A stretch of 64,000 nt of DNA, from the NCBI RefSeq assembly GCF_056746865.1, contig NZ_CM163382.1; one strand, 5' to 3'. Each line of letters starts with the position of its first letter. The stretch's first letter is position 1. Below are positions 57,601 through 60,600 of the stretch, in pieces. A program made the position numbers.

Positions 57601-60600
57601 CCGCAGGGAATGACCAGAACGGAGCGCGAAGAATTAAAAAGTTTCGCTACACAGTGCGGGAATGCTGGCGACATCCAAAGTCTGGAACGCACTTTAATTA
57701 TGATTGCGCACTGGATGCGCCAGGGGCAAAGGGTTTCATTTACTGAATATGCCAGCCAGTGGACAGAGGCACAGCGCGAACGGAGCGACGGTAATCACTC
57801 AACACCCGAAATGGCGAAGCAATGGCCTTTCAGTGGTAAACGCTGTATCAGTCCCGGTGGTTCAGATTATTACCCTGCTGGTGTGGGAGATGAGCCATGT
57901 TGTGACGAGACTGAAATCCGCCACGCAGTGACAGTAATTACCGCTGAATACCCACAATTTAACCTTGACGGACTGGCGCTCCACAACCGGAATGCGGACT
58001 GGGAAAACCCGCTTGATAACCCGTCATTTATCGTATCGGCGAAAAGCTGCCTGAGATGGATCAGAGACAACGGGATGAGTAATGCCCAGATTGAGAGCTT
58101 CCCGCAGGATAACCCCACATCTGACACGTTGAAGCATGAAGTGGAGCGATATAACCAGATAAACCACCAGCACAGTGATCACCCGCACTATATCCCCAAC
58201 GGAGCATTTATTGCGGCGATGGTGGCAAGCGGCTACAAGGTTAAACCAGCGGGAAGAATGAACGCATTTTTCAATATTTCAAAAAAGGGATTATGTGCTG
58301 CTATGGGTAAAAATTAAATAAATGGTACAGGTCTGTACAGGTGGGTAGAGGTCATTTTTACCCACCTGTACCACCTGTAGGCCGCGCCACACAAGGGTTT
58401 GTGGCATGGTGGTACAGGTGGTACAGCAAAAACAGCGATTTTCTTTATAAGGTATGTTTTGCTCATCTGGCAGACGGAGGTATTCGCTGCGGTTTGGCAC
58501 ATAGCCCAGAACAGGAAAGAGTTTTACGAGACTTTTGTAAAATCCAGTGTACAAGGGCGTGACGTTTTTGAAGGTGAGCACTACGAAATTTTCGTAGTTC
58601 AAAAAATAGCCTCTGAGATGTTGTTATGCCTGTTCAGCAAACCATCCGCATAGCTGATCGCGAATCAAATTACCAATGGAGCCAGAAGCAAGGGCAGAAC
58701 TGGAAAGCGCCTGCCATGAAGAGTAATGCGACACCATAAATATAGTTTTTAGAGTCCATAAAAAACCTGTCAAAACTTGACACACAGAACGATGCCACCA
58801 GCTACTGAGCGGTGGCATTTTCTTGTGCTATTCGTTTCACATTTTGCAATGAACATGATGAATATTGCGTTTTATGAAACTATAATAACTGTTGTTTTAT
58901 ACAGTTCTAAGGGGGCGTTATGGCTATTTCAGTAAAGCCGGTATTGATAAGTGAGAAGCAAATGGAAGCGATAAAGAAAATTCAGGAAGAGCAGCGTAAA
59001 AAATCAGGAATTGGAGTAGCGCCAACTCTACATGAAATTGCACGAGGGTTAATAGATAAGGCGCTGGCAGGCTGTATGTGAAAATGGATGGCATCGCATG
59101 GAACTAAAATTTATTGATAACCCTGTGCGATTACAGGCCTTTCTTAACGATCCTGGCAATACCGAAAATATTGTTGAGCCGGGGCACACGTACTACATCA
59201 AGCCTGATGCGGTATATCTCGGCATCTACGAAGGATTGGTGCTGGCTGGCGTTCATGAAGTGCGTAACTTCTGGCATAGCATTGTTGAATGCCATGCGGT
59301 GTACGACCCCGGATTCCGTGGTGAATATGCACTGCAAGGGCATCGATTATTCTGCAAATGGCTTCTCGAAAACTCACCATTCCTTAACAGCATTACCATG
59401 GTTCCTGACACCACCAAATACGGACGGGCAATTATCCGTTTGCTTGGCGCTACCCGTGTTGGTCACCTTGATGATGCTTATATCAGATGTGGTAAACCCG
59501 TCGGCGTAACGCTTTATCAGTTAACTCGGCAACAATATAAGGAATTCAGCGAATGTTAATTACCCATATAGCTCATAAACATCTCAATCGTGCCGTATAC
59601 GAAAAAGGCGGTGATGGTGGTGCCTCTAAAGCTCAGGCGAAGGCCCAGCAGCAGGCAATTGATTTGCAGCGCGAGCAGTGGAATACGGTGATGAATAATC
59701 TCAAGCCGTATGCAGAAGTCGGATTGCCTGCTTTACAACAACTACAAGGACTGATGACTCTGGAAGGGCAGAATAAAGCCGCGAATGATTTCTTTGGTTC
59801 TGGTTTATATAAAACACAGGCAGATCAGGCCCGTTATCAGAACCTTGTCTCAGCAGAAGCTACCGGGGGGCTTGGCTCAACAGCTACCAGTAACCAGTTA
59901 TCTTCCATTGCGCCCATGCTTTATAACAATTGGCTTAGTGGGCAAATGCAAAATTATGGAAACCTGCTAAATGTCGGGATGAATGCGGCATCAGGGCAGG
60001 CAACGGCAGGGCAAAACTACGCCAATAATACCGGACAACTCTTGCAGGGGCTTGGCGCTATTCGTGCAGGTCAGGCGCAGCAGCCATCCAGTCTTGCGCG
60101 TGGTATTGGTGGGGCAGCATCAGGCGCTTTAGCGGGTGCGCAACTTGGTTCCGTTGTTCCTGGAATAGGAACTGCGGCCGGCGCTATTGGTGGTGGGCTT
60201 ATTGGTCTTGTTGGGGGGCTTGGATTCTAATGGCGACATGGCAACTTGGCGGGCTGCCTAGCATGGCACCGCAAAATGATAATGCTCCTCGTTCTTCCGT
60301 TCCTCAGCCTGTGCAGTATCAGCAGCAGCCAAACGTAGGTTTAATGGCGCTACAGGGGCTAAGAGGCGTTGCTGAGATTAATCAGCAGGCGCAAATTTCC
60401 CAGCAGCTAAAAGAATATCAGGCACGGTTGGGTAGTGCGGTAGCTAATAATGATCGTGTTGGCGTGCAGAAGTTAATGGCCCAGTATCCCCAGTTTATGG
60501 CTGATTCTCAAAAACAGATGGGATTCATTGATGCTGAGCAAAATCGGCAGACCGCTGACGCTGCCATGAATCTGCGTCTTGCGTCACAAACTGGAGATCC

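What the first reader, a model, noticed from the sequence alone, without database searches (positions are those of the whole stretch)
58426..58919. About 0.5 kb of non-coding DNA with a terminator inside the island
Between the second repeat cluster and the small ORF at 58920 there is no convincing ORF, only short overlapping frames on both strands, but there is a clear hairpin terminator (58794-58825) and AT-rich promoter-like sequence after it. The region could encode a small RNA, a regulatory switch or the origin proper.
Basis: seen in the sequence. Interest (0 to 1): 0.3.

Follow-up and report, generated by a model that had tools for sequence, protein, structure and literature searches.

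The report
Terminator plus SOS-controlled promoter in a satellite island
The 0.5 kb "non-coding" stretch is an ordinary intergenic region of a known type of phage-satellite island: dead gene fragments, a transcription terminator, and a conserved promoter that carries a predicted LexA (DNA-damage) box and a conserved double repressor site, not a small RNA gene or the replication origin.

Summary
There is no maintained ORF in 58426-58919, and there is a strong + strand hairpin terminator at 58792-58826 with AT-rich promoter sequence after it.

The region has two layers:
- **58433-58762 is filler.** It contains frameshifted remnants of a phage anti-repressor gene and the tail of another gene. It is shared only among close E. 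coli islands.
- **58763-58919 is a conserved control region** for the next operon, which encodes a 53-aa ribbon-helix-helix protein followed by P22-like ejection-protein genes.
  - Two 15-bp palindromes (TTTCA-N5-TGCAA and TTGCG-N5-TGAAA, 30 bp apart) cover the -35 hexamer and the spacer. Their boxes are preserved in 52 of 75 distinct relatives, down to 48% protein identity.
  - A perfect TATAAT follows.
  - A canonical LexA box (AACTGTTGTTTTATACAGTT, 58887-58906) comes directly after it. It is the best LexA-like site in the 64-kb window and sits at the same position in the Escherichia, Serratia and Pantoea copies.

The island is an EcCIMP1-like PICI. The logic mirrors LexA control of SaPI operon I. 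The small-RNA, origin and toxin readings are not supported. This is a modestly interesting, testable prediction, not a new kind of element.

The parts
58322..58432 (.). Second iteron cluster (GGTACAGGT / ACCTGTACC repeats), part of the island's replication origin. It lies just outside the finding and is given for context.
   Evidence: the repeat finder families D1-D3 and D13 and inverted pairs I8, I9, I12 and I13. Relatives with other primase types carry different iterons at this place (GTTGGTTCA in L003, ATCCCTAC in L005).
58433..58520 (.). Spacer inherited together with this iteron type. No feature was recognised in it.
   Evidence: It is shared only with islands that have the same 245-aa gene and iterons (hits covering query 1-769). 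Homology to DUF927-primase islands starts at about 58515-58521. GC is about 45-46%.
58558..58667 (+). Frameshifted remnant of a phage anti-repressor gene (phrog_1726 family).
   Evidence: tblastn of the 242-aa protein of a P22-like prophage (L004 3847-4575) matches in two frames: RDVFEGEHYEIFVVQK in frame +2 (58558-58605), then ...VVMPVQQTIRIADRES in frame +1 (58593-58667) with an in-frame stop. The protein hits phrog_1726 'anti-repressor' at 1.4e-100. A 38-nt core (58568-58605) is 100% identical to such prophage genes.
58617..58739 (+). Remnant of the 3' end of another gene. The 37-aa ORF at 58626-58739 is the tail of a 152-aa protein that is intact in a related island.
   Evidence: tblastn of the L002 5612-6070 product gives 47% identity over 43 aa, ending in the identical AMKSNATP*. 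Four relatives have TGG to TGA inside this ORF.
58768..58782 (.). Palindrome TGTCA-N5-TGACA at the left edge of the conserved block. Its function is unknown.
   Evidence: Read from the sequence. It is kept as TGTCA-N5-TGACA in all E. coli copies, although the TTGACA hexamer is CTGACA in most. It is not seen in Serratia, Klebsiella or Pantoea.
58792..58826 (+). Intrinsic (Rho-independent) terminator ending the primase/replication transcription unit.
   Evidence: Fold of -24.6 kcal/mol, z = -5.7, and called by the terminator scan. Within the scanned stretch 57900-59400 it is the first + strand terminator-like site after the 245-aa ORF stop at 58317. Unrelated terminators sit at the same place in Pantoea L010 and Klebsiella L015.
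58835..58849 (.). Left operator palindrome, TTTCA-cattt-TGCAA.
   Evidence: The boxes are invariant in 12 sequences from at least five genera while the spacer letters vary. The same frame is present in 52 of 75 distinct IMG/VR relatives.
58858..58863 (+). Weak -35 hexamer, ATGAAT (inferred).
   Evidence: It lies 17 nt upstream of TATAAT. Equivalent hexamers in relatives include TTGAAT (Pantoea), GTGATT (Serratia) and ATGATT/ATGATC (Klebsiella types). It is below the threshold of the promoter scan.
58865..58879 (.). Right operator palindrome, TTGCG-tttta-TGAAA. It fills the promoter spacer.
   Evidence: It is 30 bp centre-to-centre from the left palindrome and ends 1 nt before the -10 hexamer.
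58881..58886 (+). -10 hexamer, TATAAT.
   Evidence: Perfect consensus, at a fixed distance from the right palindrome in the E. coli, Serratia and Klebsiella copies.
58887..58906 (.). LexA (SOS) box, AACTGTTGTTTTATACAGTT (CTGT-N8-ACAG).
   Evidence: Approximate heterology index 4.6, within the 0.1-10 range of 20 known E. coli boxes scored with the same matrix. It is the best site in the 64-kb window; the next best scores 11.7. CTGT-N8-ACAG is the only such match in each of 9 related loci, always about 31 nt before the start codon. It is also present in 16 of 75 IMG/VR relatives.
58909..58915 (+). Shine-Dalgarno sequence AAGGGGG of the small gene.
   Evidence: Read from the sequence. It ends 4 nt before the ATG at 58920.
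58920..59081 (+). 53-aa ribbon-helix-helix protein, first gene of the operon and candidate binder of the palindromes.

Best explanation
The stretch is the intergenic region between the replication module and the next operon of an EcCIMP1-like phage-inducible chromosomal island (PICI).

Left two-thirds (58433-58762). This part has no function of its own. It is a mosaic of decayed gene fragments that is transcribed, if at all, as the 3' tail of the primase operon.

Terminator (58792-58826). The hairpin ends that transcription and insulates what follows.

Regulated promoter (58835-58915), which drives the 53-aa RHH gene and the P22-like ejection-protein genes behind it:
- A weak -35 and a perfect -10 are separated by a spacer that is filled by one of two 15-bp palindromes. 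The second palindrome lies 30 bp upstream.
- A canonical LexA box begins immediately after the -10 and covers the expected transcription start.

Inferred mechanism:
- In the resting lysogen, LexA blocks the promoter.
- The RHH protein, made from the first gene, binds the two palindromes. This would be negative autoregulation, as Arc does at P22 Pant.
- DNA damage, which also induces the helper prophage, removes LexA and gives a burst of expression that the RHH protein then limits.

Shown: the sequence elements, their geometry and their conservation. Inferred: the transcription start, LexA binding, and which protein binds the palindromes.
For: Filler:
- Gene remnants with a frameshift and an in-frame stop.
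- Stops and an indel in relatives.
- The segment is replaced by unrelated DNA in L002 and L005.

Terminator:
- Fold z = -5.7 and a terminator-scan hit.
- Non-homologous terminators at the same position in L010 and L015.

Operators:
- The invariant columns of a 12-sequence, multi-genus alignment fall on TTTCA, T..AA, TT.C and TGAAA.
- 52 of 75 distinct relatives, down to 48% protein identity, have TTTCA-N35-TGRAA at the same offset. In those, the inner GCAA and TT.C letters are 100% conserved although they were not part of the search pattern.
- Elsewhere in the same loci the pattern occurs only 13 times in 437 kb.
- No similar pair of sites exists elsewhere in the window.

LexA box:
-.

RHH fold of the first gene product:
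-.

Context:
- The operon behind the small gene carries ejection-protein genes here and small-terminase genes in Klebsiella relatives, so it is the island's post-origin 'late' operon.
- The island is 98.7% identical over 10 kb to L001, whose chromosomal setting matches the published EcCIMP1.
Against: - There are no transcript, transcription-start or binding data.
- The simple promoter scan does not call this promoter.
- The LexA matrix was rebuilt from boxes recalled from memory, so the heterology index is approximate.
- The LexA box is missing (1-bp deletion, HI 11-17) in the Klebsiella-type relatives and absent in the most distant group. It is therefore a lineage-specific layer, not a fixed part of the system.
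- The small protein has no Pfam or PHROG hit, and the Foldseek match was not significant (E = 3.3).
- Nothing shows that the RHH protein, rather than another island, helper-phage or host factor, binds the palindromes.
- Within E. coli the 'filler' is less variable (2.8% mean pairwise difference) than the small ORF (6.1%), so a function for it is not excluded.
Confidence: 0.62

Rival explanations
1. The region encodes a small regulatory RNA that ends at the hairpin terminator.
For: There is a strong + strand terminator. The 240 bp before it is well conserved among E. coli islands (2.8% mean pairwise difference).
Against: There is no Rfam match at E <= 5 apart from noise. No promoter-like site was found on either strand. 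The TTGACA at 58777 is CTGACA in most copies, and its -10 would fall inside the hairpin. In L005, L002, Serratia, Klebsiella and Pantoea the sequence upstream of the conserved block is unrelated. The conserved stretch is explained by recognisable gene remnants.
Confidence: 0.07
2. The region is the replication origin proper, or its DNA-unwinding element.
For: It directly adjoins the second iteron cluster. PICI origins lie downstream of the primase/rep gene (PMC6092414).
Against: There are no iterons beyond 58432. GC is 39-46% across 58440-58680, whereas the AT-rich stretches are at 57160-57320 and 58240-58360. The segment 58521-58919 is retained unchanged in islands with different primases (DUF927, P4 family) and different iterons, whereas origins co-vary with their initiator.
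Confidence: 0.05
3. A type I toxin-antitoxin pair: the minus-strand 29-aa hydrophobic ORF (58759 to 58670, MDSKNYIYGVALLFMAGAFQFCPCFWLHW) would be a membrane toxin, controlled by an antisense RNA that ends at the hairpin.
For: A short hydrophobic ORF faces a + strand terminator.
Against: The ORF is cut to 16 aa by a stop in L002 and is absent in L005. Among E. coli copies its substitutions are about 5 non-synonymous to 1 synonymous (read from the alignment). It has no good ribosome-binding site and no promoter. It lies inside a recognisable remnant of a + strand gene.
Confidence: 0.02
4. The promoter and palindromes are real, but the palindromes are bound by a factor other than the small RHH protein (for example AlpA, another island protein, a helper-phage regulator or a host factor). 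They might mediate activation by the helper phage rather than autorepression.
For: [quoted passage not shown] The -35 is weak, as in activator-dependent promoters. No binding data exist.
Against: The palindromes travel with the small gene across all relatives whatever the cargo. No similar site lies near alpA or elsewhere in the island. One palindrome fills the -35/-10 spacer, which is a repressor position. The small gene's product has a DNA-binding RHH fold. The small protein has no homologue in 50,697 phage records.
Confidence: 0.2

Closest known systems
SaPI operon I promoter (Staphylococcus aureus pathogenicity islands), LexA-controlled (Ubeda et al. 2007, Mol Microbiol 65:41, as cited in PMC6092414 and PMC6739421)
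   Same: Both are the operon that follows the replication origin of a phage-inducible island. It carries packaging or interference-type genes and sits behind a LexA box, so it opens when DNA damage also induces the helper prophage.
   Different: The host (Enterobacteria), LexA box type (CTGT-N8-ACAG) and cargo (P22-like ejection proteins) are different. There is an extra conserved double palindrome and an RHH first gene. LexA control here is predicted, not shown, and is limited to part of the family.
EcCIMP1, an E. coli PICI mobilised by the P22-like phage Kapi1 (Pick et al. 2025, PMC11773190)
   Same: The island is of the same type. The window is 98.7% identical over 10 kb to L001. L001 sits at proA/tRNA-Thr next to a MarR-Vat island, as described for EcCIMP1. 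The paper notes DUF2824 and DNA-transfer genes downstream of the primase.
   Different: The window's copy sits next to yicC, has another integrase and carries an IS insertion. The paper's main text contains neither 'LexA' nor 'terminator' (0 occurrences each), and the passages read do not describe the palindromes or the small gene's fold.
P22 immI region: Arc, a 53-aa RHH repressor encoded as the first gene of the Pant operon it represses (own knowledge)
   Same: A small RHH protein is encoded first in the operon. Inverted short boxes about one helical turn apart overlap the promoter. A burst-then-shut-off logic is expected.
   Different: There is no detectable sequence similarity to Arc or Mnt (no Pfam hit). 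The operator sequence and layout differ (two 15-bp palindromes 30 bp apart). Binding is untested.
Chromosomal and colicin SOS promoters of E. coli (for example uvrB AACTGTTTTTTTATCCAGTA, dinD AACTGTATATAAATACAGTT; own knowledge, consensus cited in PMC8072944)
   Same: A 20-bp box with perfect CTGT and ACAG arms and an AT-rich centre lies next to the -10 and over the start site.
   Different: It is located in a mobile satellite and combined with a second, island-specific operator.

Membership tests
Intrinsic (Rho-independent) terminator | Stable GC-rich stem-loop | tested here: met
   8-bp GC-rich stem plus a 3-bp inner stem. The fold is -24.6 kcal/mol, z = -5.7, with 0 of 200 shuffles as stable.
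Intrinsic (Rho-independent) terminator | Run of T immediately 3' of the stem, on the strand of the upstream genes | tested here: met
   The stem is followed by ATTTTCTTGT in the window and by T7 in most E. coli relatives. All upstream genes (primase, 83-aa ORF, 245-aa ORF) are on the + strand.
Intrinsic (Rho-independent) terminator | Transcripts end there in vivo | not testable with these tools
   This needs term-seq or Northern blots.
LexA (SOS) box, gamma-proteobacterial type | CTGT-N8-ACAG palindrome with an AT-rich centre | tested here: met
   CTGTTGTTTTATACAG lies at 58889-58904. Of the four CTGT-N8-ACAG matches in the window it is the only one with an AT-rich centre.
LexA (SOS) box, gamma-proteobacterial type | Heterology index within the range of boxes known to bind LexA | tested here: met
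   HI is 4.6, against 0.1-10.0 for 20 known boxes scored with the same matrix, and it is the best site in 64 kb. The matrix was rebuilt from remembered sequences, so the value is approximate.
LexA (SOS) box, gamma-proteobacterial type | Overlaps the promoter or transcription start of the regulated gene | tested here: inconclusive
   The box starts 1 nt after TATAAT, so it would cover the start site. The start itself is not mapped.
LexA (SOS) box, gamma-proteobacterial type | LexA binding and induction by DNA damage | not testable with these tools
   This needs a gel shift and reporter assays in lexA(Ind-) and recA backgrounds.
Ribbon-helix-helix (Arc/MetJ/CopG) repressor with its own operator | Beta-strand, helix, helix fold of about 45 residues | tested here: met
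Ribbon-helix-helix (Arc/MetJ/CopG) repressor with its own operator | Match to a curated RHH sequence family | tested here: not met
   There is no Pfam hit at E <= 0.01, no PHROG hit and no PDB sequence hit. The Foldseek match had E = 3.3.
Ribbon-helix-helix (Arc/MetJ/CopG) repressor with its own operator | Short repeated or inverted boxes overlapping its own promoter | tested here: met
   Four TTKCA-type boxes form two palindromes over the -35 and spacer. They are conserved in 52 of 75 relatives.
Ribbon-helix-helix (Arc/MetJ/CopG) repressor with its own operator | The protein binds those boxes and represses | not testable with these tools
   This needs a gel shift or footprint and a deletion mutant.
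Phage-inducible chromosomal island (Gram-negative PICI, EcCIMP1 type) | Integrase, AlpA, primase/rep with iterons downstream, no capsid, tail or lysis genes, size of about 10-20 kb | tested here: met
   See the ORFs and Pfam hits, the annotation of L001 and the iterons. The window is 98.7% identical over 10 kb to L001, whose setting matches EcCIMP1.
Phage-inducible chromosomal island (Gram-negative PICI, EcCIMP1 type) | Excision and transfer induced by a helper phage | not testable with these tools
   This was shown for EcCIMP1 with phage Kapi1 (PMC11773190), not for this copy, which also carries an IS insertion.
Bacterial small RNA gene | Own promoter, terminator and conservation as a unit | tested here: not met
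   Only the terminator is present. There is no promoter and no Rfam family, and the upstream sequence is not conserved outside close E. coli relatives.
Iteron-type replication origin | Iterons and an AT-rich unwinding region that co-vary with the initiator | tested here: not met
   There are no iterons in 58433-58919. GC is 39-46%. The segment is kept in islands with other initiators.

The most novel reading that the evidence does not exclude
The two palindromes and the 53-aa protein form a previously undescribed RHH repressor-operator pair that is the universal gatekeeper of the post-origin ('late') operon in a large clade of enterobacterial phage satellites. In the Escherichia, Serratia and Pantoea lineages this gate has been combined with a LexA box, giving a two-input switch (host SOS signal plus an island-specific signal). 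That switch would time expression of the hijacking or ejection-protein genes to helper-prophage induction.
Probability: 0.4. Interest if true: 0.45.

Novelty: new member of a known kind. Interest (0 to 1): 0.3.

Why it matters
Three points matter if the prediction holds.

- **Regulation.** For Gram-negative PICIs, the papers read here describe AlpA as the master regulator. They do not say how the operon behind the origin is controlled. A LexA box plus a conserved RHH operator would give a concrete answer that is cheap to test. It would also extend to Enterobacteria the logic known from staphylococcal islands, where the late operon is under SOS control.
- **Regulator family.** It would give a function to a small protein family that currently has no annotation.
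- **Annotation.** Much of a "non-coding" gap in a mobile element can simply be decayed genes.

Tried and rejected
- **Rfam.** Scanning 57900-59400 at E <= 5 returned only two chance hits (a fly lncRNA and a microRNA).
- **Minus-strand hydrophobic ORF as a toxin.** Rejected because it is not conserved.
- **The + strand 37-aa and 84-aa ORFs as genes.** Rejected because they are pieces of a frameshifted remnant and carry stops in relatives. The 84-aa translation has no PHROG hit.
- **TGT-N12-ACA at 58824-58841.** This is the type of site used by P2 Ogr / P4 delta activators. Rejected because ACA reads ATA in the other E. coli copies.
- **TTGACA at 58777 as a -35.** Rejected because most copies read CTGACA and the -10 would fall inside the hairpin.
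- **P22 pac-like sequence (recalled from memory).** No match with up to 3 mismatches in the window. This is a weak test.
- **Homologues of the small protein in phages.** None in 50,697 records.
- **Copies of the operator elsewhere in the island.** None convincing, including near alpA.
- **Papers linking phage satellites to ejection proteins or LexA.** Only EcCIMP1 mentions the DUF2824 and DNA-transfer genes. None describes this control region.
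Full report
**1. Context**

Window 46.3-64 kb is a mobile island. It carries the following features:
- An integrase at 46334-47677, next to yicC.
- An IS insertion.
- An AntA-type antirepressor.
- A 784-aa primase (zinc ribbon, Toprim, DUF5906) at 54829-57183.
- Two clusters of ACCTGTACC-type iterons at 57209-57316 and 58322-58432, flanking two small genes.
- The finding region.
- A 53-aa ORF at 58920-59081.
- Homologues of P22 gp14 (DUF2824), gp7 and gp20.

A 99.9% identical copy of the query stretch 58300-59100 exists in E. coli MDR_56 (L001). There RefSeq annotates nothing between the 245-aa gene and the 53-aa gene.

The window is 98.7% identical to L001 over 10 kb. 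L001's setting is proA, tRNA-Thr, integrase, AlpA-like HTH, primase, PerC, then a MarR/Vat island. This matches the published PICI EcCIMP1, whose helper is the temperate phage vB_EcoP_Kapi1 (PMC11773190). I describe Kapi1 as P22-like from my own knowledge. That paper notes the DUF2824 and DNA-transfer genes downstream of the primase. Its main text contains neither 'LexA' nor 'terminator'.

**2. The observation**

- The ORFs that a mechanical scan lists in 58426-58919 overlap one another.
- The hairpin at 58792-58818 plus its T-run folds at -24.6 kcal/mol, with z = -5.7 against shuffles. The terminator scan calls it on the + strand.
- The following 100 bp is 31-36% GC and contains a perfect TATAAT.

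**3. Modular structure from comparison**

About 520 of 5426 complete E. coli genomes carry the region. The matches break at fixed points.
- Some islands share everything from the 245-aa gene onward.
- Islands with a different primase (DUF927) and different iterons share only window 58515/58521 onward.
- Others share only 58670 onward, or only 58763 onward.

The piece present in every copy is therefore 58763-59068: the terminator, the AT-rich stretch and the small gene. In E. coli 64.1 (L005) another set of iterons (ATCCCTAC) abuts this core directly, and the cargo behind the small gene is different.

**4. The left part is decayed coding sequence**

- A 242-aa protein from the immI region of a P22-like prophage matches window 58558-58667 in two frames, with an in-frame stop. 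This protein belongs to PHROG 1726, 'anti-repressor', with E = 1.4e-100.
- A 38-nt core is 100% identical to such prophage genes.
- The 37-aa ORF at 58626-58739 is the tail of a 152-aa protein that is intact in E. coli PKF4.
- In four relatives this ORF has a TGG to TGA change, and one relative has a 1-nt insertion in the A-run.
- The 29-aa hydrophobic ORF on the minus strand is truncated in L002 and missing in L005, and it changes mostly by non-synonymous substitutions.

Nothing here looks like a maintained gene.

One caveat remains. Among seven E. coli copies this filler differs by only 2.8% on average, less than the small ORF (6.1%) or the operator region (8.5%). With two allelic types of the right-hand part and so little divergence overall, this says little. 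It does not exclude a function.

**5. The terminator**

- Within the scanned stretch 57900-59400, it is the first + strand terminator-like site after the primase, 83-aa and 245-aa genes, which are all on the + strand.
- Its sequence is conserved only within Escherichia.
- Pantoea (L010) and one Klebsiella island (L015) have unrelated terminators at the same position, after co-oriented upstream genes.
- Pectobacterium has a divergent upstream gene and no evident terminator.

This is what one expects of an insulating terminator at the end of the upstream unit, not of a conserved RNA element.

**6. The promoter and its double operator**

I collected upstream regions of homologues of the small gene from three sources:
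- E. coli, another Escherichia species, Pectobacterium and Pantoea.
- Serratia and two Klebsiella michiganensis islands.
- 80 IMG/VR contigs, giving 75 distinct upstream sequences, down to 48% protein identity.

In the 12-sequence alignment the invariant columns fall on TTTCA (58835-58839), T..AA (58845-58849), TT.C (58865-58868) and TGAAA (58875-58879). The letters between them vary.

In the larger set, 52 of 75 sequences have TTTCA-N35-TGRAA at the same offset from the gene. In those, the inner GCAA and TT.C letters are 100% conserved although they were not searched for. The same pattern occurs 13 times in 437 kb of the remaining DNA of these loci. By eye, several of the other sequences (for example L031 and L054) carry variants with the box types swapped (TTGCA, TGCAA, TGGAA).

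The unit is thus four TTKCA-type boxes arranged as two 15-bp palindromes, 30 bp centre to centre. The right palindrome plus one base makes up the 17-bp spacer between a weak -35 (ATGAAT) and the perfect -10. This is a repressor position. No comparable pair of sites occurs elsewhere in the window.

**7. The LexA box**

AACTGTTGTTTTATACAGTT (58887-58906) lies directly after the -10. This is CTGT-N8-ACAG with an AT-rich centre.

- With a heterology-index matrix rebuilt from 20 E. coli SOS boxes, it scores 4.6. The boxes were recalled from memory, so the score is approximate. The consensus is as cited in PMC8072944.
- The known boxes score 0.1-10.0 with the same matrix. The next best site in the 64-kb window scores 11.7.
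- CTGT-N8-ACAG is the only such match in each of nine related loci, always about 31 nt before the start codon.
- A good box is present in the Serratia (HI 3.9) and Pantoea (HI 5.9) copies and in 16 of the 75 IMG/VR sequences.
- The Klebsiella type keeps CTGTATAAATATCAGG, one base too short (HI 11-17). The most distant group has no box.

LexA control is therefore a lineage-specific layer on top of the universal palindromes.

**8. The small protein**

- It has no Pfam, PHROG or PDB sequence match and no homologue in 50,697 phage records.
- An AlphaFold model built from a 14-sequence alignment has pLDDT 84.5. It shows an extended N-terminus containing the invariant KPVL, followed by two helices.
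- Foldseek gave only a non-significant TraM hit.

The protein is the constant partner of the palindromes whatever the cargo. The cargo is ejection proteins in E. coli and Serratia, other proteins in L005, and small-terminase genes further down the operon in a Klebsiella island.

The simplest reading is negative autoregulation, as with Arc at P22 Pant (own knowledge). This step is inferred.

**9. Comparison with known systems**

- The element is an ordinary terminator plus a regulated promoter inside a known island type.
- The closest functional parallel is SaPI operon I, which follows the origin and is LexA-controlled (Ubeda et al. 2007, cited in PMC6092414 and PMC6739421).
- The Gram-negative PICI papers read here describe AlpA as master regulator and do not mention LexA control of the post-origin genes.

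I therefore file it as a new member of a known kind.

**10. Verdict**

- 'Regulatory switch' is right in a plain sense.
- 'Small RNA' and 'origin' are not supported.
- Interest is modest. The value lies in a specific, testable prediction: SOS plus RHH control of the PICI late operon.

Noticed in passing
window 59098-61549: The satellite island carries homologues of the P22 ejection-protein cluster: gp14/DUF2824 (7e-62), gp7 (7e-73) and gp20 injectosome translocase (4e-22). Relatives also carry a gp16-like injection protein. Structural 'ejection' genes in a PICI are unusual, and their role (hijacking, or exclusion of superinfecting helper phage) is unknown.
   Followed up: partly
L017 (NZ_CP148430.1, 12,152 bp, circular); also NZ_LT599831.1 (19,226 bp, hit H57): L017, deposited as a complete E. 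coli 'plasmid', is an island of this family (integrase, primase, small RHH gene, PerC) and is probably an excised circular PICI. NZ_LT599831.1 is a 19,226-bp record holding the same module, but its annotation was not inspected.
   Followed up: partly
window 57209-57316 and 58322-58432; L003 about 5830-6000; L005 about 2900-3000: The origin iterons differ between islands and go with the primase type: ACCTGTACC with DUF5906, GTTGGTTCA with DUF927, and ATCCCTAC with the 'P4 family' primase. In the window the two clusters flank two genes (83 aa and 245 aa), an arrangement reminiscent of P4 ori/crr.
   Followed up: partly
window 58768-58782: A third palindrome, TGTCA-N5-TGACA, has the same 5-N5-5 layout as the operators and differs by one letter. 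It lies just before the terminator and is conserved in all E. coli copies but not in other genera.
   Followed up: no
window 47858-49131: An IS3-family element (orfA/orfB with the usual overlap) lies between the integrase and the rest of the island. This copy may therefore be crippled for induction or excision.
   Followed up: no
L001 16881, L002 7424, L003 8642, L008 5261: A second LexA-like site (CCCTGTATGCAAATCCAGCA, approximate HI 7.5) lies inside the gp20-like ejection gene of several relatives. It is absent from the window's allele.
   Followed up: no
L013, L015, L036-L061 (Klebsiella-type relatives), about 20-40 nt upstream of the small gene: The sequence CTGTATAAATATCAGG is conserved across more than 20 distinct sequences. 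It looks like a LexA box shortened by one base and merged with the ribosome-binding site. Whether LexA still binds it is open.
   Followed up: no
L006 4001-4066 (E. coli EC02): A 66-bp piece similar to window 58744-58808 (83.6% identity) sits in an unrelated island next to ProQ/FinO and PerC genes, in an unannotated gap.
   Followed up: no
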